A DNA stretch of 62,738 bases, filler included, from Ionaspis alba (lineage: Eukaryota), in assembly GCA_964255285.1 (NCBI GenBank). It is 8 parts of 8 records of this genome, joined end to end, with 100 filler letters (N's around TTAATTAATTAA, not from the genome) between each part and the next. Parts side by side here need not be neighbours in the genome. Positions count along the whole stretch, not along the records: positions 39,352 to 47,091 come from CAXUUL010000808.1; 7 more parts are not named here. One strand, given 5' to 3'. Positions 7,785 to 55,019 of the stretch are shown piece by piece. Each line of letters opens with the position of its first letter. Position 1 is the first letter of the stretch. A model generated the notes under the pieces. That model had not been told where the DNA came from and searched no databases. It worked only from the letters and a program-made list of their open reading frames with translations. Position numbers and translations under genes: made by a program.

Positions 7785-7884
7785 NNNNNNNNNNNNNNNN
7801 NNNNNNNNNNNNNNNNNNNNNNNNNNNNTTAATTAATTAANNNNNNNNNNNNNNNNNNNNNNNNNNNNNNNNNNNNNNNNNNNN
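7785..7884. other. Artificial scaffold-joining spacer N44-TTAATTAATTAA-N44 (also at 15668-15767, 23548-23647, 31407-31506, 39252-39351, 47092-47191, 54920-55019)
   Basis: Identical 100-bp spacer occurs seven times. The 12-mer places stop codons in all six frames. Genes are cut mid-CDS at several spacer edges. Confidence 0.98.
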
Positions 7885-12006: not shown

Positions 12007-12106
12007 NNNNNNNNNNNNNNNNNNNNNNNNNNNNNNNNNNNNNNNNNNNNNNNNNNNNNNNNNNNNNNNNNNNNNNNNNNNNNNNNNNNNNNNNNNNNNN
12101 NNNNNN
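12007..12106. other. Intra-scaffold 100-N gap of unknown true size (also 21765-21864, 41242-41341, 52308-52407)
   Basis: Exactly 100 N with no linker. Two of these gaps interrupt recognisable CDSs (SCC3 and ZNG1). Confidence 0.95.
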
Positions 12107-15667: not shown

Positions 15668-15767
15668 NNNNNNNNNNNNNNNNNNNNNNNNNNNNNNNNN
15701 NNNNNNNNNNNTTAATTAATTAANNNNNNNNNNNNNNNNNNNNNNNNNNNNNNNNNNNNNNNNNNNN

Positions 15768-23094: not shown

Positions 23095-23647
23095 GCTTTG
23101 GCATGAGTAACTGGGATGTACAGCATGGTGTCGAGGGCGGCACTGGATGGGCTGGATATGATCGGGACCTTATTGTGATGGGGCATTGCTCGGTTGTCCG
23201 GTTAGTAGGATAAGGCGTTCGTGCAAGTAGGAGGCTTGCTTTAGGGTTTCGGCCTGTTGCATGCTTGATTAGGCTAGGCGCACTATGTATGAAGTATCAG
23301 GGTAGATGAAAGGCACGTTGATCATTCATTGGGCTCTTTAAGCTTTAGAGTTTGTACTGGAAGTCGTCGTAGTGAGACGGTATTGATTCCAACCATGGTC
23401 GTGCCTTCTGTTTTGGATAGGGTTTCCAGCGGACCATGAGGTTATTTCAACCACCATTTTCGAGGCTTACTCGATATCATGACATCTCACAAGTCACTAA
23501 TGCTCAACAAAGGCTATGCTTGACTTATTCGAGCAGTGGGAACATGTNNNNNNNNNNNNNNNNNNNNNNNNNNNNNNNNNNNNNNNNNNNNTTAATTAAT
23601 TAANNNNNNNNNNNNNNNNNNNNNNNNNNNNNNNNNNNNNNNNNNNN

Positions 23648-30972: not shown

Positions 30973-31506
30973 TTTCGGCCCTAAACAGTGGAAAAAGGGC
31001 GGAAGAGCTGGTACTGTTCGGAGACTAGGTAACGAGACGCGCAGGTTCTAATCGGAGCTGTACCTGGTGAGTAATCGGCTGGCTGAACGTAACCCAAATG
31101 GCTCTTCGATCAAAAGTTTCCGAGTAATATACAAGGTGTAATGAGGAAGTTTGAGATGACGTCTTAAGAGACCAAAGTCAATTCGTAGGCGGCCGTCATG
31201 GTCTGTCCAGATCAAAGCACTCAACCGCCAGGGTCGGCGATGTCAACACCAGTATCGCCAGGTAGCAAGACACCTGGGCCGAGACTTAATGGTGTAGAGA
31301 AGTTGAAGACGACAATCCAGTATGACATTGTTGATGAATAATACGGATGAGACTCGGTTCCTTCAATGACGGAACTGCTCGGCGGCTTACTAGTGGATGT
31401 TGGAATNNNNNNNNNNNNNNNNNNNNNNNNNNNNNNNNNNNNNNNNNNNNTTAATTAATTAANNNNNNNNNNNNNNNNNNNNNNNNNNNNNNNNNNNNNN
31501 NNNNNN

Positions 31507-39240: not shown

Positions 39241-42200
39241 GGTAAACAGGGNNNNNNNNNNNNNNNNNNNNNNNNNNNNNNNNNNNNNNNNNNNNTTAAT
39301 TAATTAANNNNNNNNNNNNNNNNNNNNNNNNNNNNNNNNNNNNNNNNNNNNACCGAACGGAGAGGTTAGGGTCAGCCAAGTAGCCCGCTCGGCCTAGAAC
39401 CGCCCGCCCCAAGACACCAAGGATCTGCCCACCATCCACCACAGTAAATGCAACATGATCGTACTTCATCTCGGACTTGCTGGCATTAAGTGAGGAAGGG
39501 GGGTGGGGACGATCGCTACCAGGTTGAGGCAGCGCTGGAAAGTCTATGGTTTTGATTCTGAGAAATGAATAAACGGTGCATGCATGCTTTCGTCGGGTCG
39601 GATAGACTTGGGGCAGGCATTCCTGCATCTGGCATGGCAGTGACAGGACGGATATTGAAGGCTGAGAGCGCTTGTGTTTCTTTCCAGAACGAGTCTTGCA
39701 TCAGCACTTCCCCACGCTACGATCATCTTTGCTGCGGTCTGCCCGGGTTTACGATTCTGTACGAAGCGGCCCCATCCACATTGCTGACGTTCGGTTCTTC
39801 GATAAATTCGATTTTGTAGCTGCGCATTGCCGTAAGACGAATATTCCCCTCTTGCCGATCTAGTCCAGAAGGATTGCGAAGTAGGATATGCAGCTCAGCA
39901 TGTAGCTTACGAGTGATTCGCGGCGCTGCTCTGCCAAATGAACTTTACATAGCATACATGACAAAGCAGAGGACCCACTCGTCTTCGCGGCCTTTACAAA
40001 AGGGTTCTCGAGAGACTGTTGATGTCTTAGGCAGACTAGTGGATGTATGGACAAAGTTTGACTTGGGCGTGCAGCTAAAATTCCCCACGTCAAGCAGGTC
40101 TTGGAAAGTCAAGACGCGTGGAAGGCGTAAATAGTCTGAACAAGCTCGAGTAGTGGCGGTCGGCGCAATTTTGTTAATTCATTGCTTGAAACATCGTCGA
40201 GAGGACCCTCGCCATGATTGCCGAACAGCGGTGCAAGCCTTTTGGTTGCCTTGTGACCACTCACAACCGCACAACATCTTGGAAATCTCGATTTCGTCGA
40301 TCCTGAATATCCTAAAGTTGCTTATTCCAATGCTTGCGGCTCTCTAGCAATTTTGTTCCTGTGCATCTTGTCGACGCGTCAATCCAACCTATATTTTCTC
40401 CAAATTGATAGGAGGTACACAACTAGCAACTGAGAGTGTCGAGACAAGTCGGACGTTCGTGGTTCGTAGCTGTGACTACTTACCTAGGAGGCACAACCAT
40501 CAAATAACGATTTTGTTGGACAAGACGTTTATTAAAGACTTCTCCTGGACTAGACAAGTGCCATTATCCTGTGGGTCCATGGTAGAGGGAAAACCTACAC
40601 ATAAGAATGAGTGAAGCAAAATTGACACGTGAGACGTCGAAAGTTCGAAGCCCAGGCCTTCATCAAGGTATACAGAATGGTTTCATTGGGCTTTTAGAAT
40701 CCTTCCACTGGCTGAACATGCTGGACTTGTACATAATGCAATGGATCAGAAAGTGGACGCCAATAATGATAAGGAATGGTCTGGCGGCTTCGGCTGAGCA
40801 ACAAAGGGCGGTGACGCAGAAGAGAACAACAATCACAAGGGCTTGGAAAAGCGACATGTAGAAGTCCGATGAAACGAGCAACAGTAAAGAGTAGGCAACT
40901 GTATAGGTACAAAGTATGATGCAACAGTCTTCTGGGTTTCTCAACTGCAACATTGCTTTCCCTGCTGGACGCCGTCTTACATACATTTTTGTACCACCAG
41001 CAACATAGCGGTAGTAGTGGTTGGCTAAGCTTGTTTGTCGTGTCGATGGAGTCAAAGCTCAGCTTAAGGTGTTCCAAAATCCAGTGGCATATTTGCCTGA
41101 CCCCAACATATGGCCCAAGGAAGTTGACCCATCGCTGCATAGTCAGCAGTCGGAAAAGGCGCTTTGCGAGGTTGTGTTACCTGATAGGGAACGCCTGAGG
41201 CAAGGCAGATGATTATTGTTGCTCCACTCCAAGGGGAGGGANNNNNNNNNNNNNNNNNNNNNNNNNNNNNNNNNNNNNNNNNNNNNNNNNNNNNNNNNNN
41301 NNNNNNNNNNNNNNNNNNNNNNNNNNNNNNNNNNNNNNNNNAGAGTTATCCTACCGTGCAGGCGACCCGACATGCCGAGTCCTTGAATCGTGGCGCATGG
41401 CACCAAAGTTGTCTCGACTTAGTTGCCTCGTGAAGCAAGAAAAGCGCCGAAAAGTCGTTCGAACCAACCCTTGCAGCGTCGATCAACGGAATGCAGCTTT
41501 CCATGGGCGCATTTGCTACATCTTTGTCCTAGTGCCTGTGACTTGGTAGTCCCGCTGGCTTGCCTCCCCGACGAGGCACGAAGAGCTCTAGTGTAAATGG
41601 GGAAGCAGAGCATTGCACTGGCTGGCAGGGAGATCCCTAGGCTGACTTGATTCCCAGCCTTGGCTTTCCCGCATTGCGGCACAGAAGACAATCTTTGCAT
41701 CGGTCCATGGCGTTCTCTAGATCGTGTTACCACAAACTTATCCTTTGCTTGGGATGCCCTTGCACAGCACTGTTGAGGCGGGCGTTTGGGAGCCTCCCAA
41801 GGGTTGACGAATCCGCTTCGGCTCCTTCTTCATCCTCAGCATCGTCAGCGCTTCCGACATCCTTACCGACTCGTACTTAGACTATGTGCAGCCATAGAGT
41901 CCCTTGCTAAATGCGTCTAGGCATCTATGGCATTGCATCTACCGCAAAGCCGTCAAAACGATCCCACGTTTCGATCGTTCAGCCAACTCTTGTCATGCAG
42001 AAGGGTGGAACGATGGAAAAAAGGCAAATTTGTTGCACTTCACGGACCCGACTAGTCCGCTAGTTGCCCATCCGATGTGGAAAAGCAATCATGGTTCTCT
42101 CTTTTACAATTGGATTAGCCAACATCCTTTGACGTCCGCTGAGTATGAGGATTAGGATATGTAGGGTTGATCGTGCCGGTTTGTTGGGGGCGCAGATCTA

Positions 42201-43620
42201 AGGAAGATACTACTCTGGAACATAGTCTTGTCTGACTTAGAGAACCGTATTACCCAGCACCAGCATGAGCCCATGTCGATGTCGTGAACGTCGGATGGCT
42301 AAGAATGGTATTTCAACAGCCGTAGGTAGTCATTACTGGCCACCTTTTCGTGGATATTGCATGTTGGACCTCTAATTCTGACCAGGTATCTTGACCTCGG
42401 CATCCCGATAAGGAGTTGTCGTCCTGCCTTGACCGTACTAACAGCCGATCGTATTCCATGGAGGTCTTCGAAATTTGCTAAAGCATCATTTAGAGGTGCC
42501 TAACTCCCTACGCATATACGCGTATGTATATTTAACGAGGCCGATGAGGCTTGTGGGTCATCCCGGCTTCTTAGCTAATTCTCTTTAATTGATTGCCTGT
42601 GCAGATTAAGAGGCATCTTCGACAAGTTACCACATTACGGTGCCTGGAGCAATCCAGGTATCCACCAAGGATTCAAGATGTGCAACGGCAGGTCACGGTG
42701 GCAGAAGTAGTAAACTTCAAATTCGCGCAGGAAGGCATGGTTGCAAGTACAACTGCCTCTCGAAACATATTGTGCGTCGAGCCACTGTCATCCTCCAGCA
42801 CCGAGCTGTACGTCTTACAAGTACAGGTACCAAATACTGTTGCCGTGGTGCCGTGCCAATTATCGCCCGAACCAACAGATTGGAAGAAAAGCAGAAGGCC
42901 AGATGGAGACGACGAGGGATCGTGCGTCGGTCGAACAAGGTGTCAGATAGATTTTTGATTGGCGCAACTGCATATGCAGACGCCCCCCAGGGTCAGAGAC
43001 GCAGGGAAGGTAACGAGTCTTGGTCTCCTTTTGGTTGCACTCTGCCGGAGTGGTAGGGATGCCAGTAGGGGGAGGGGAACTATGAGCACCAAGCAGCAAC
43101 AGCATACCACTACTCGTACTGCACTTACGTAGAACAGGGACGTTGAGAATCCGTGGCCACTCACAGCCATACCCTCCAAATCTGCTTTGCTCATTCCCAC
43201 CCACGCCCCTGTAACCTCAAACTTCCATGCATCCCCAATTAAAGCCCTTGTCCATCCTCCGTCACCACTGTTGCCGTCACCGTGCCCCCCTTGTCCGGCT
43301 GCGAAATGGTTGACCGCTTAATCCATCCCTTCCCCAAGCCTTCGCCGAAGGAAAAGAGTGTGTGGACTTAAGCTCCAAGTCAAAGCAGTGCGCCTGTGCC
43401 GCTAATGCTGCTAACCATTTCTCCCCCAAGCCCCCGTACGGAGTAGGATAGGCTTACGAGTAGGTAGTCCACCGACGGATCCTAGACGCGGGTTGCCTTC
43501 TTCGACAATCTCGCTCCTTACATCCCTCGTGCGTGTGGTTGCGCCCTGGTTTCTACGTCTCCTTTAAACAATATTTGCCTTTGGCTCTTACCATGTTCCA
43601 TAGTCTCCCTATGCGCCAAT

Positions 43621-43643
43621 ACACACACACACACACACACACA
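43621..43643 (+). repeat. (AC)11 microsatellite
   Basis: acacacacacacacacacacaca read directly from the sequence. Confidence 0.95.
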
Positions 43644-44138
43644 TTCCCAACCCATCATCCCATCACAAGCACAAACCCTAGTTTGGATCATCCCGAGCCC
43701 GTCGTGTTCGATGTTCCAATGCGGGCTGAAACTGTGAGTGGATGCAGGCATACCAACCGCTCGTCTGACTCAATCCTTCTTTCGTTGGCATCCCTCCGAG
43801 CTCCAATCTAATGCCTAGATGAGCCATGCAGCGGGGCTGCTTCTCTTGCCGGTCTCGTTATGTCCCTTGGTGGCCATGGTTCGTGGGGCTGGTGTGATAC
43901 TTTCGTCATGTAGTCGTGTACTCTCTTATTGCTTCTGTAGCACCGTGCTTTCTCCCCCTCTTTCCTATGCTGGTATCCCATCTCCACGCAAGCCTTTTTG
44001 ATGAAGCCTCCTTCCAGGTACTCAGGAAGTGCAGGCCATAGAGCATCGCCAGTCCTTATCCTCATTCTCTTCGCTCTCTCATAGTCAAACACCCAGAGGA
44101 AAGATACCTCTTCTCACTATCATTTCATATTGAGCATC

Positions 44139-45410
44139 ATGTATCAACACACCATGGGCAATACCTCAGTCCAGCAGTCCTCTTTAGACATTGATGCCAT
44201 GCTGTTCGATGTTTCCAATCGTATGGCTAGAGCACAACTGGCACGGCAAATATCAAGCAGCTCCTCCACATTCAGGCAGAGAGTATCGAGGATCTCGAAA
44301 GCGAACAGTGCTGGTAGCAGTCCTCAAAGCATTCAGAGAAGAAAGACAACATCGTCATACAAAGCACCTCGACAACAGACCGACATGCTCCATCAGGGTG
44401 TCCAGATGCCAAGACAAGATATGGTCCACAGTTCGCACCGATACCAGTCCTCAACAAATCCTATAAGACCAGTCAGCTGGCATCCATCTGTAGCATACAA
44501 TCGTGGTATGACACGGATGTCAAATTACGAAGTCCCAGCGAGGCACTCAACAGTTTATCAGACAATGGCTGTAAATGGTCTGCCAACTCCAATGACCCAA
44601 CCAGACCTTAGTACGGAAGTACCAGTCGATCCACACTTCAGCCTTGACGGGTCATCCCCTTCGTACCAACAGCAGATTATGGCATGCAATGGCTTCGACT
44701 CAGCTGGACTAAGCTTCGATCCCAACTACCAACCTGTCAATCCATATGACTCTCATAATTCGATGCATTACCCCAGCATGGCGGTATCCGACAGTACACC
44801 CACATGTTCAGCCATGGCCTATCCGACACAAGCCTGGGCTGAATCTCTCGCCACCTTCCCTCTACATACTGCACCACCATCACCCGACTTTCTTCCAATC
44901 CAGAATCCAATGGACATATGGGATGGTTCGAGGCTGAACTCCGCACCGTCACTACCGAAGAAAGCGAGCAAGGAACTCGTTGGCATGGGTCTCTATGACC
45001 ATCCGGATCGAAACAGCTTCTCTGCGGACAGCATCTTGGACAGCTACATCGGCAGCTTTGGCACGAACCCTCACCACGACTCGCAAGGCAAGGGGTTGAA
45101 GCTCGAGGAAACGTGGGAACCGCCGGAGGAGGACAAGGATAGTGATGAGGAGGAGGAGGAGGAGGAGGAAGAGACGCAAGGGGAGGAGAGTCCCCCCGCT
45201 GTTGAGGAACAGATGTTACCGGGTAGCTTCGCCGAGGGTGAGAAGCAGCACGAGCCATTCTACCCAACCTATCCGGACTTGTCAAATCAGTCGTTCTTCT
45301 TCGATAGCGATGATACTTACTTCGATGCAATTGGATATGGACATCAAACGAACCTACAGATGGTGTCGAATATCCATGGCTTTCCTGTACCGGATCCAAG
45401 ATGGGCGTGA
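44139..45410 (+). CDS. Hypothetical, largely disordered protein (Pezizomycotina type)
   Basis: Uninterrupted ORF of 423 codons with short motif-like islands RPVSWHP, GLPTP, TAPPSPDFLPIQ, ELVGMGLYD, GKGLKLEETWEPP and an acidic tract. Confidence 0.8.
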   Translation: MYQHTMGNTSVQQSSLDIDAMLFDVSNRMARAQLARQISSSSSTFRQRVSRISKANSAGSSPQSIQRRKTTSSYKAPRQQTDMLHQGVQMPRQDMVHSSHRYQSSTNPIRPVSWHPSVAYNRGMTRMSNYEVPARHSTVYQTMAVNGLPTPMTQPDLSTEVPVDPHFSLDGSSPSYQQQIMACNGFDSAGLSFDPNYQPVNPYDSHNSMHYPSMAVSDSTPTCSAMAYPTQAWAESLATFPLHTAPPSPDFLPIQNPMDIWDGSRLNSAPSLPKKASKELVGMGLYDHPDRNSFSADSILDSYIGSFGTNPHHDSQGKGLKLEETWEPPEEDKDSDEEEEEEEEETQGEESPPAVEEQMLPGSFAEGEKQHEPFYPTYPDLSNQSFFFDSDDTYFDAIGYGHQTNLQMVSNIHGFPVPDPRWA

Positions 45411-45640
45411 TGGATGTCGTCAGACATCATTTGCCTTCTAATTATATATTGTACATAAGATTGGGTATTACAAGAGAGTTGTGTTGAGGGACAAATTGCA
45501 TCGTTGTTGACCTGGAACGGTCGGGGCGGAGCGTTGATTGTGGAATCAACACCAGCTACTGAAGGCGCGTTGGTGGATGATGATTGGTGGAAATCTACCT
45601 AAACATATGAATATATTTTGTTCCAGGACATGGTCTTCCA

Positions 45641-45758
45641 ATGCAGGGAGTGGTGGCCCGTTGGTAGACCCATTTGTTGACCTTGCGAGCGAGAAGGCGT
45701 CTTCGCTAAGGCACCCGAATAGCCACACTGGACGTGGGTTCTCTGCACCCTTTTTTTT
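45641..45758 (+). ncRNA. Candidate RNA polymerase III-transcribed structured RNA of unknown family (~110 nt)
   Basis: TATA-like TATATTTT at 45612. Terminal stem TGCAGGGAG (45642-50) with TTCTCTGCA (45739-47). A-box-like TGGCCCGTTGG (45654-64). T8 tract at 45751-58. Near-consensus B-box 17 nt downstream. Confidence 0.55.
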
Positions 45759-45766
45759 CCCCCCTT

Positions 45767-45805
45767 GGTCACCGGGTTCGAGTCTCGATGATCACGTTCT
45801 TTTTT
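45767..45805 (+). promoter_or_regulatory. TFIIIC B-box (GGTTCGAGTCT, 45775-45785) in a T-arm-like hairpin, followed by T6
   Basis: GGTCA-C-CGGG-[TTCGAGT]-CTCG-A-TGATC. Matches the GGTTCGAnTCC consensus except at the last position. Confidence 0.7.
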
Positions 45806-46430
45806 CGCCTTCTTGAATTTCGAATCCATTCGCCCTTCCTTACTTACAGCAGATGTCATAAACTGAAGGCCAGGTCTATTAATATCTACGTAACTCCAAA
45901 CACTAAGCACTTACAATTGTGATTTACACAATCAAGTCTATTGCAGATAAAGCAGCATTACCGCATTTCTCTGCCCTACCACAATGACTTGCCTCGATTG
46001 TACTCTAGAAGATTTGAATCACGGAATGAATAACCAGCACAAAGCGAGACGCAATCAAAGTGTCCTGAGATGATCTTAACACTTCGATGGTGTCAAAACA
46101 AGCCCGTATGAGACAATGCCCAGTACCATTTTCTGAAGACAACACTGCCAATGACTCTACTCTGAAAATACTGCTGTATAATATCATATCATAGCATTGC
46201 TTAGACGAAGTCCTCTCTTTTGAAGAGGCTCTGAAACAAGCTTTGTGGCTTTAGCTAGTAGGACGATCATCCGTGCACTCACACAAGGATCCCTGTAAGC
46301 ACGTGCATCTTAGCACTCGAGCCTTTCCGAATATTGATAATTTTCATCATTTCCCGTCAATCACGATCTATGATAGTTCTGACAATGTACATACCGCCCG
46401 ACAAGCTCTTTACTGCCATAGGCTATCGTC

Positions 46431-47091
46431 ATGCCCCAGTTCGAAGTGACGGCCTGGCGCCATGTATCAGACTTGGTCGGTGTGCGGGATCGATTCTACC
46501 CTGTAAAATCAAATATGCCTCTCGGTGTGCGTAGGAATGCTTGCGACCAAGTACGTGGAACATTTTGCATACAAGTGGTTGAGAGGTTCGATCTGATATA
46601 TTCAAGGTTACAGCATGGAAGGCTCGAGGTAGTGTTCCACATGCTTTGGAAGCTACGTCTTCAATAACGGAAGCCGCTCTCAATGACGATCCCACGAGCT
46701 CTTCAACACAGGCCATTAGGGCAACCTATTCCATTGCGTTTTCGCGGTACGCTTCTACCGCGTTTCACCACACATCAAATCTCACACTTTCCAGTTTTGT
46801 CACTGGGCTCACAGACGTTGAGCAAACTAAGAAACGCAAAAGGTCAATGTTCGAGGTTGGAAGAGGCATCGGTCTTCCTTCTTCATTTATTCAACTTCGT
46901 CATCAGATTACTCATGAGGATCTGCCCTCCCTGACTTTATTGCGCCGAGCTACCAAACAAGCACTCGACTGGCTCTACAACGACTATTGGAGATACCTCG
47001 AAATACCACCTGCAGATATGCCTAATCCGTGGAGTACATATTACAACGCGGCGCCTTCCGCAATGTCATCTGCAATGGCTAACCCGTGGAG
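46431..47091 (+). CDS. LAS1: Las1 HEPN endoribonuclease (pre-rRNA ITS2 processing), 3' truncated
   Basis: Spliced VTAWKARGSVPHALEATS...YSIAFSRFVTGLTD...IGLPSSFIQLRHQITHEDLPSL...ALDWLYNDYW, containing the HEPN RHxxxH motif. Confidence 0.92.
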
Positions 47092-47191
47092 NNNNNNNNN
47101 NNNNNNNNNNNNNNNNNNNNNNNNNNNNNNNNNNNTTAATTAATTAANNNNNNNNNNNNNNNNNNNNNNNNNNNNNNNNNNNNNNNNNNNN

Positions 47192-54919: not shown

Positions 54920-55019
54920 NNNNNNNNNNNNNNNNNNNNNNNNNNNNNNNNNNNNNNNNNNNNTTAATTAATTAANNNNNNNNNNNNNNNNNNNNNNNNN
55001 NNNNNNNNNNNNNNNNNNN

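What the first reader, a model, noticed from the sequence alone, without database searches (positions are those of the whole stretch)
45612..45805. Unassigned ~110-nt structured RNA with a full Pol III promoter layout and a B-box downstream of its terminator
Seen, in order on the + strand: TATATTTT (45612) about 30 nt before a purine start (45641/45643); an A-box-like TGGCCCGTTGG at about +12; a T8 terminator (45751-58); then B-box GGTTCGAGTCT (45775-85) and a second T6 (45800-05). The body folds by eye into a closing stem TGCAGGGAG/TTCTCTGCA, an inner stem AGTG(G)TGGC/GCCACACT and an apical hairpin CCTT..AGC..GAAG-GCGT-CTTC-GCT-AAGG. ACCCAT/GTGGGT could add a pseudoknot. Established: TATA + internal A-box + extragenic downstream B-box is the S. 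cerevisiae SNR6 (U6) promoter type. However, the U6 ACAGAGA box, the U5 loop GCCTTTTAC, 5S sequence and a cloverleaf are all absent. Inference: a small Pol III ncRNA of a family I cannot name, lying upstream of LAS1.
Basis: partly seen in the sequence, partly recalled or inferred. Interest (0 to 1): 0.78.

Follow-up and report, generated by a model that had tools for sequence, protein, structure and literature searches.

The report
Possible new Pol III RNA gene
A short stretch between two genes of an ascomycete fungus carries, in the right order and spacing, all the signals of a small RNA gene read by RNA polymerase III, but it matches no known RNA family and nothing here shows that the RNA is made.

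Summary
Taken singly the motifs are at chance level: the B-box core occurs once against 0.60 expected, and the A-box-like match is one of 281 against 264 expected. The arrangement is not at chance level. The window's only B-box core is the loop of a T-arm-like hairpin (45766-45794). It lies between the only + strand T8 and a T6 placed as a tRNA gene's terminator would be. Upstream, a TATA, an A-box-like block and a terminal stem frame a 110-nt GC-rich body. In my simulations, whose definitions were set after seeing the locus, none of 333 chance B-box cores had the downstream features together, and 1 of 5013 T-run anchors had the upstream set.

Rfam gives no match. ARAGORN finds no tRNA at normal thresholds. 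No fold is more stable than shuffled sequence. I could obtain no related fungal DNA and no RNA data, so conservation and expression are untested.

My odds: about 0.4 an active SNR6-type Pol III unit of an unnamed family, 0.3 a decayed tRNA-type gene or TFIIIC-only site, 0.2 chance.

The parts
45612..45619 (+). TATA-like element TATATTTT, 23-24 nt (its end) or 29-31 nt (its start) before the proposed start
   Evidence: TATAWW occurs only 30 times on the + strand of the window. It could equally be a 3'-end signal of the upstream mRNA gene (inference).
45641..45643 (+). Proposed Pol III start (purines A45641 / G45643). Inferred, not observed.
   Evidence: Position relative to the TATA and to the first base of the terminal stem. 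No read data.
45641..45750 (+). 110-nt GC-rich body of the putative RNA
   Evidence: 59% G+C against 44% for the 45411-46430 intergene. No Rfam match at E<=10. Fold z=+0.32.
45642..45650 (+). 5' strand of the 9-bp terminal stem (pairs with 45739-45747)
   Evidence: It is kept in the MFE and centroid folds. Such stems occur at 10 of 19 T>=6 runs.
45654..45664 (+). A-box-like block TGGCCCGTTGG at +12 to +14
   Evidence: It has 2 mismatches to the recalled consensus TRGCNNAGTGG. Matches of this quality are at chance frequency in the window (281 against 264).
45681..45711 (+). Apical hairpin of the body (CCTT..GAAG / CTTC..AAGG with bulges)
   Evidence: z=-0.38 for 45675-45713, not better than shuffles.
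45739..45747 (+). 3' strand of the terminal stem, 3 nt before the T8
45751..45758 (+). T8 run, the proposed Pol III terminator of the body
   Evidence: It is the only T>=8 on the + strand and one of 10 T>=6 runs there.
45766..45794 (+). Hairpin resembling a tRNA acceptor/T-arm minihelix: 6 bp, a C.A mismatch, a 4-bp T-stem-like helix and a 7-nt loop TTCGAGT
   Evidence: MFE and centroid agree. 9 of 10 flanking positions pair. This was seen in 0 of 216 and 1 of 117 simulated chance B-box cores. Thermodynamic z is only -1.03.
45775..45785 (+). B box GGTTCGAGTCT, 17 nt after the T8
   Evidence: It holds the only match to the core GGTTCGANTC (45775-45784) in 62.7 kb on both strands.
45800..45805 (+). 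T6 run, beginning 3 nt after what would be tRNA position 73 if the B box is numbered as in a tRNA
   Evidence: A T>=5 run in that place was seen at 3 of 216 and 5 of 117 simulated chance cores.

Best explanation
The stretch is a Pol III transcription unit of the SNR6 type, built from tRNA-gene parts, and it encodes a small RNA of about 110-118 nt that belongs to no described family.

Proposed mechanism:
1. TFIIIC binds the B box at 45775-85, which sits just past the terminator inside a T-arm-like hairpin sequence, and also binds the weak A-box-like block at 45654-64, 121 bp upstream.
2. TFIIIC places TFIIIB over the TATA element at 45612.
3. Pol III starts at about 45641-43, transcribes the GC-rich body, and stops in the T8 (45751-58).
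4. The product has paired 5' and 3' ends and an oligo-U tail.

Shown: the presence, order and spacing of all the elements; that the ensemble is far from chance; that the locus is single copy; and that no known family matches.

Inferred: factor binding, transcription, the RNA ends, stability, and any function of the RNA. The function is unknown. A La-bound stable small RNA is the default expectation for such a product.
For: - Motifs and order are confirmed.
- The sole B-box core of the window lies 17 nt after the sole + strand T8 and 15 nt before a T6.
- Among simulated chance B-box cores from the window model, 14 of 216 had the three extra T-stem pairs, 3 of 216 a terminator in place, and 2 of 216 an upstream T>=6. 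From the intergene model the figures were 10, 5 and 3 of 117. None had all three.
- A terminal stem + TATA at 25-35 nt + an A-box-like block at +5 to +25 occurred at 1 of 19 real T>=6 runs (this one), and at 0 of 1168 and 1 of 3845 simulated anchors.
- The body is a GC island: 59% against 44% for the intergene.
- The locus is single copy. The contig over it has depth 96 against 108 for its neighbour, and there is no second copy in the window.
- No ORF over it has a Pfam family at significance.
- An upstream TATA, an internal A block and a B block downstream of the coding region is the published layout of S. cerevisiae SNR6, and promoter make-up of fungal U6 genes is said to be flexible (PMC5855946, passages).
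Against: - No fold of the body, of the hairpins or of the whole is more stable than dinucleotide shuffles: z=+0.44, +0.32, -0.38, -1.03, +0.04 and +1.37.
- The A-box-like block has 2 mismatches and is of a quality seen 281 times in the window.
- The terminal stem is of a kind found at 10 of 19 T-runs.
- The TATA and the T-runs lie where the 3' end of the upstream mRNA gene (stop at about 45410) is expected, and they could serve that instead.
- The A-to-B distance of 121 bp is outside the 30-90 bp given for tRNA genes and differs from the ~200 bp of SNR6.
- The simulation criteria were set after seeing the locus.
- There is no independent sequence from a relative, so there is no conservation or covariation evidence at all.
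Confidence: 0.4

Rival explanations
1. A decayed tRNA-type gene, or two adjacent ones, or a TFIIIC-only site. In this reading the B-box hairpin with its T6 is the surviving 3' end of a former tRNA gene. It may still bind TFIIIC as an 'extra TFIIIC' site or a boundary upstream of LAS1, but no stable RNA of function is made. The upstream TATA, A-box-like block and stem are leftovers or coincidence.
For: - The T-stem-like pairs, the 7-nt T-loop and a T-run 3 nt after position 73 give the geometry of a tRNA gene's 3' end.
- ARAGORN at an 80% threshold draws a poor tRNA-like cloverleaf over 45675-45795, which needs a 46-nt 'intron' that holds most of the T8.
- The body shows no thermodynamic sign of selected structure.
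- TFIIIC-bound sites without Pol III are established in yeast (PMC3395662, abstract and passages).
Against: - A relic does not explain the T8 17 nt upstream of the B box (2 of 216 and 3 of 117 chance cores had one).
- It does not explain the TATA/A-box/stem set in front of that T8 (0 of 1168 and 1 of 3845).
- No 5' half that pairs with the 3' acceptor-like strand is present, and Rfam's tRNA model gives nothing at E<=10.
- Six of the eight yeast ETC sites lie between divergent genes. This intergene lies between two + strand genes.
- All promoter elements are intact, which is unexpected in a long-dead gene.
Confidence: 0.3
2. Ordinary intergenic DNA. The TATA and the T- and C-rich runs are 3'-end and promoter signals of the flanking Pol II genes (the upstream ORF ending at 45410, and LAS1 starting near 46431). 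The B box is the one chance match expected per window, and the stems are what any 59% G+C sequence gives.
For: - The B-box core is expected 0.60 times per window, and 44 of 100 shuffles have one or more.
- The A-box-like motif and the T8 are at chance frequency.
- No fold beats its shuffles.
- There is no Rfam match.
- A second GC-rich island without any Pol III signal lies just upstream at 45470-45590.
Against: The joint layout was not reproduced in simulation: no simulated B-box core of 333 carried all three features tested (T-stem pairs, terminator in place, upstream T>=6), and 1 of 5013 T-run anchors had the upstream set. It also occurred at none of the other 18 real T>=6 runs. The multiplied marginal rates give roughly 1e-5 per window or less for the B-box module alone. 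This is an inference, and it rests on small counts and post-hoc definitions.
Confidence: 0.2
3. A very divergent member of a known family that the models miss. Examples would be an aberrant tRNA-like gene whose internal B box has been replaced by an external one, or a Pol III-driven precursor of small RNAs.
For: - The minimum-energy fold of the body is a four-way junction with a 9-bp end stem.
- The A-box-like block resembles the D-loop region of ordinary tRNAs. This resemblance is recalled, not tested.
- External B boxes ~41 bp downstream of 66% of tRNA genes are known in Dictyostelium (PMC3159450, passage).
Against: - ARAGORN with introns allowed finds nothing over 45641-45758 at its default threshold or with the -ps option without a value. 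At 80% its only call is the poor 45675-45795 one, which overlaps the 3' part of the body, and at 70% it adds two poor ones.
- Rfam gives nothing at E<=10.
- The would-be T arm of the body has no T-loop sequence, and the would-be anticodon loop would carry a pyrimidine at position 37 (read).
- The fold has a frequency of 0.005 in the ensemble.
Confidence: 0.1

Closest known systems
S. cerevisiae SNR6 (U6 snRNA gene) promoter: upstream TATA, internal A block, B block downstream of the coding region
   Same: The order of elements is the same: TATA about 30 nt before the start, an A-box-like block inside the transcribed part, a T-run terminator, then the B box (layout per PMC5855946).
   Different: The RNA is not U6: there is no ACAGAGA and no Rfam U6 match. 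The A-to-B distance is 121 bp, not ~200 bp. The B box follows the terminator by 17 nt and is embedded in a T-arm-like hairpin with its own T6.
tRNA genes (type 2 Pol III promoter), including Dictyostelium tRNA genes with an external B box
   Same: It shares the A-box-like block, the B box as a 7-nt loop on a 4-bp stem, and a terminator a few nt after the acceptor-like strand. An extra B box shortly downstream of a Pol III gene is known (~41 bp downstream of 66% of D. discoideum tRNA genes, PMC3159450).
   Different: There is no tRNA by ARAGORN at normal thresholds or by Rfam. The body lacks an internal B box or T-loop. The organism is an ascomycete, not an amoeba.
Extra TFIIIC (ETC) sites of budding yeast
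   Same: It is an isolated B box in an intergene outside any recognisable tRNA gene, and might bind TFIIIC without making a useful RNA (PMC3395662).
   Different: ETC sites are defined by ChIP and by a 10-base conserved 3' extension of the B box, whose letters I could not see because they are in a figure. Most lie between divergent genes, whereas this one lies between two + strand genes and has TATA, A-box-like and terminator elements around it.
Other fungal Pol III small RNA genes (5S rRNA, SRP RNA, RNase P RNA, snR52-type snoRNA)
   Same: The size class and the T-run terminator are shared, as is the pairing of the 5' and 3' ends as in 5S.
   Different: No Rfam model of any of these matches even at E<=10. 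The body has no C/D boxes.

Membership tests
tRNA (Rfam RF00005 / ARAGORN) | Cloverleaf with conserved D- and T-loop nucleotides, detected by standard tools | tested here: not met
   ARAGORN finds 0 genes in the window, and 0 with introns allowed both at the default threshold and with the -ps option without a value. At 80% there is only a poor call at 45675-45795 with a 46-nt insert holding most of the T8. Rfam gives nothing at E<=10.
U6 snRNA | ACAGAGA box and match to the U6 covariance model | tested here: not met
   ACAGAGA is absent from 45560-45860 on both strands. There is no Rfam hit.
SNR6-type Pol III promoter | TATA near -30, intragenic A block, T-run terminator, B block downstream of the terminator, all on one strand | tested here: met
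   This holds at the level of sequence only, and the A block is a 2-mismatch match to the recalled consensus.
SNR6-type Pol III promoter | B block needed for transcription; TFIIIC, TFIIIB and Pol III occupancy | not testable with these tools
   Needs ChIP and promoter mutants. No RNA run was listed for this organism.
ETC (extra TFIIIC) site | B box with a conserved 10-base 3' extension | not testable with these tools
   The consensus letters are in a figure of PMC3395662 that is not held, and I did not use a recalled sequence.
ETC (extra TFIIIC) site | Tendency to lie between divergently transcribed genes (6 of 8 in yeast) | tested here: not met
   The flanking ORF 44085-45410 and LAS1 (46431 onward) are both on the + strand.
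SINE / tRNA-derived repeat | Many dispersed copies | tested here: not met
   The contig over the locus has depth 96 against 108 for the neighbouring contig in run X1, with no piece fitting two places. There is no second copy in the window.
C/D-box snoRNA | C box RUGAUGA and D box CUGA near the ends of the RNA | tested here: not met
   There is no TGATGA and no CTGA in 45641-45758. A lone TGATGA lies upstream at 45578-83, and the Rfam C/D hits there have E of 0.6-3.5.
5S rRNA, SRP RNA, RNase P/MRP RNA, Y RNA, vault RNA | Match to the family covariance model | tested here: not met
   There are 0 matches at E<=10 in 45636-45810 and 0 at gathering score in the whole window.

The most novel reading that the evidence does not exclude
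This is an undescribed family of ascomycete Pol III small RNA. Its gene arose from tRNA-gene parts, has lost any internal B box, and depends on a tRNA-derived B-box minihelix placed just behind its terminator. That would be a second natural example, beside U6, of the 'TATA + internal A + extragenic B' promoter, here driving a new RNA.
Probability: 0.3. Interest if true: 0.6.

Novelty: new variant of a known kind. Interest (0 to 1): 0.42.

Why it matters
The list of Pol III transcripts in fungi is short and is largely taken from budding and fission yeast. A new Pol III small RNA in a filamentous or lichen-type ascomycete, driven by the rare promoter type so far tied to U6, would extend that list. 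It would also show how tRNA-gene debris can be recruited to build a new RNA gene. If the site instead binds TFIIIC without making RNA, it would be a candidate ETC-like site next to a ribosome-biogenesis gene in a fungus where none are mapped. Either outcome can be tested with one Northern blot and one ChIP. As it stands it is a well-formed candidate, not a discovery.

Tried and rejected
- Whole genome: none is held.
- Earlier notes of this scan: none on this genome or on this sequence.
- Sequencing runs: 3 were listed and no RNA holder was listed. Laying them gave only contigs.
  - X1 is probably the source sample.
  - X2 gave two low-depth, near-identical pieces (45626-45819 with 1 other letter, and 45878-46200). 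It may be carry-over within the same study and is not independent.
  - X3 gave nothing.
  - So these runs gave no comparative or expression information.
- Metagenome scan with the LAS1 fragment: one locus, L001. Read through, it looks like a bacterial helicase-type gene, not LAS1 (my reading), and it shows no similarity to the candidate.
- Pattern scans for the A-box block and the layout: 0 hits in genome contigs (2 scans) and 0 in viral contigs (1 scan). These collections hold almost no fungal DNA, so the blanks mean little.
- Rfam at gathering score and at permissive E-values: nothing relevant.
- tRNA with an intron, tRNA-Sec-like, SRP Alu-domain-like, intron-split U6 and snoRNA readings: I considered each by eye and dropped it, because the defining nucleotides are missing and no model matches. 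The resemblances I weighed were recalled, not tested.
- ORFs across the locus: no Pfam family at significance.
- Literature: 4 searches found nothing on a Pol III RNA of this kind in filamentous fungi. The paper on fungal U6 promoters and introns that PMC5855946 cites (Canzler et al. 2016) is not in the library and was not read.

Full report
**What is there.** The window is a chain of short contigs joined by N spacers. The piece that holds the finding runs from 41342 to 47091. It carries three + strand features:
- A 441-codon stop-to-stop open frame at 44085-45410 with no Pfam family. Its part 44136-45407, 424 aa, was scanned.
- A 1-kb intergene.
- The start of LAS1. The Pfam Las1 domain has E=3.6e-38 at 46583-47095, the likely ATG is near 46431, and the gene is cut by the contig end.

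A neighbouring fungal-type transcription factor groups with Ascomycota proteins.

- TATATTTT at 45612-19.
- An A-box-like TGGCCCGTTGG at 45654-64.
- T8 at 45751-58.
- B box GGTTCGAGTCT at 45775-85.
- T6 at 45800-05.
- The 9-bp end stem (45642-50 with 45739-47).
- The inner stem, the apical hairpin and the possible pseudoknot words.

The U6 and U5 signature words and the C/D boxes are absent from the body.

The B box is the 7-nt loop of a hairpin at 45766-45794: six pairs, a C.A mismatch, then four pairs. If the B box is numbered as in a tRNA, the four inner pairs are the T stem. The T6 then begins 3 nt after position 73, which is the geometry of the 3' end of a tRNA gene. The body (45641-45750) is a 59% G+C island in a 44% intergene.

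**Is it more than chance?** Motif by motif, no:
- The B-box core occurs once against 0.60 expected; 44 of 100 shuffles have one.
- A-box matches of this quality number 281 against 264 expected.
- T8 is at chance frequency.
- An end stem of 8 bp or more next to a T-run is found at 10 of the window's 19 T>=6 runs.

As an ensemble, yes:
- T>=6 runs are rare, 10 on the + strand.
- Of 216 chance B-box cores in 40 Mb simulated from the window's trinucleotide statistics, 14 had the three extra T-stem pairs, 3 had a T>=5 run in the terminator position, 2 had a T>=6 within 45 nt upstream, and none had all three.
- With a model of the intergene alone the figures were 10, 5 and 3 of 117, again none with all three.
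- Independently, an end stem plus a TATA 25-35 nt before it plus an A-box-like block at +5 to +25 was found at only this one of 19 real T-runs.
- In simulated sequence that set was found at 0 of 1168 and 1 of 3845 T-run anchors.

I set these definitions after looking at the locus, so the true odds are less extreme.

**What it is not.**
- Rfam (4227 families) gives no match at gathering score in the window. It gives none at E<=10 in 45636-45810. The only weak hits nearby are meaningless C/D-like matches upstream.
- ARAGORN finds no tRNA, also with introns allowed. At 80% of its threshold it draws a poor cloverleaf over 45675-45795, with 4 Watson-Crick pairs in a 6-bp acceptor stem and a 46-nt insert that holds most of the T8.
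- The locus is single copy, so it is not a SINE.
- The ORFs over it have no family.

**Structure.** None of the folds beats dinucleotide shuffles:

| Segment | z |
|---|---|
| Body with T8 | +0.44 |
| Body | +0.32 |
| Apical hairpin | -0.38 |
| B-box hairpin | -1.03 and +0.04 |
| Whole | +1.37 |

Only the end stem survives in the centroid. 'Structured RNA' is therefore not shown. Many real small RNAs also fail this test, so it is weak evidence against.

**Conservation and expression.** Neither could be tested:
- No genome is held.
- Three runs hold or might hold the stretch, and none is on record as RNA.
- Laid as contigs they give the probable source sample, a low-depth near-identical second sample from the same study, and nothing from the third.
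- The one metagenome scan returned a locus that looks like a bacterial helicase-type gene.
- Scans of the prokaryote and viral collections found nothing.

**How it most likely works.** The published model for yeast SNR6 is an upstream TATA, an internal A block and a B block downstream of the coding region. TFIIIC binds A and B and places TFIIIB on the TATA (PMC5855946, passages). The same order is present here, so I commit to an SNR6-type unit:
1. TFIIIC sits on the B-box hairpin DNA and on the weak A block 121 bp upstream.
2. TFIIIB sits on the TATA at 45612.
3. Transcription starts near 45641-43 and terminates in the T8.
4. The product is a 110-118-nt RNA with paired ends and a U tail.

The T-arm-like setting of the B box suggests that the promoter half was inherited from a tRNA gene. 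My confidence is 0.4. Only the sequence layout is shown; binding, transcription and function are inferred.

**Rivals.**
- (a) A dead tRNA-type gene or a TFIIIC-only site (0.3). This explains the hairpin and the T6, but not the T8 and the upstream set. The yeast ETC sites that define that class mostly lie between divergent genes, and they have a 3' extension that I could not compare (PMC3395662).
- (b) Chance plus Pol II 3'-end and promoter signals (0.2). This fits the single-motif statistics and the unremarkable folds, but not the simulations.
- (c) A very divergent member of a known family (0.1), for example a tRNA-like gene with an external B box. Such boxes occur ~41 bp downstream of 66% of Dictyostelium tRNA genes (PMC3159450).

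**Verdict.** This is a well-formed, statistically non-random candidate Pol III unit of no named family. It lacks the two things that would make it a finding, a transcript and conservation.

Noticed in passing
window 45493-45624: The probable source run holds two alleles here, at depth 70 against 39. They differ at 8 sites, all within 45523-45594, just upstream of the TATA. The 323 bases before and the 606 bases after, within the stretch laid, show no difference. It is a dense, local polymorphism cluster of unknown cause.
   Followed up: partly
window 45470-45590: This is a second GC-rich island (50-55%) in the intergene. It has a perfect C-box-like GATGATGA (TGATGA at 45578-83) and weak Rfam C/D snoRNA hits (E 0.6-3.5), but no D box downstream. 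It probably lies in the 3' UTR of the upstream gene.
   Followed up: partly
window 7785-7884, 15668-15767, 23548-23647, 31407-31506, 39252-39351, 47092-47191, 54920-55019; also N100 at 12007, 21765, 41242, 52308: The window is not one molecule. Contigs are joined by N44 + a 12-base all-frame stop spacer + N44, and there are 100-N scaffold gaps. LAS1 is cut off at 47091 by such a join.
   Followed up: yes
L001 1-6087 (metagenome contig): This was the only 'LAS1 relative' returned by the metagenome scan. It is a 29-residue match at 55% inside what reads as a bacterial helicase-type gene, so it is a false positive.
   Followed up: yes
window 44085-45410 (+): This is a long open frame (441 codons, stop to stop) with an acidic run and no Pfam family at E<=0.01 (424 aa of it, 44136-45407, were scanned). 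It is the gene whose 3' end must lie close to, or over, the candidate's TATA.
   Followed up: no
window 45626-45819 in run X2: A second sample of the same study, labelled as another organism, holds a 194-base contig at depth 2.3 that spans almost exactly the candidate, with one other letter. It is most simply low-depth carry-over or a near-identical strain. The run's kind is not on record.
   Followed up: no
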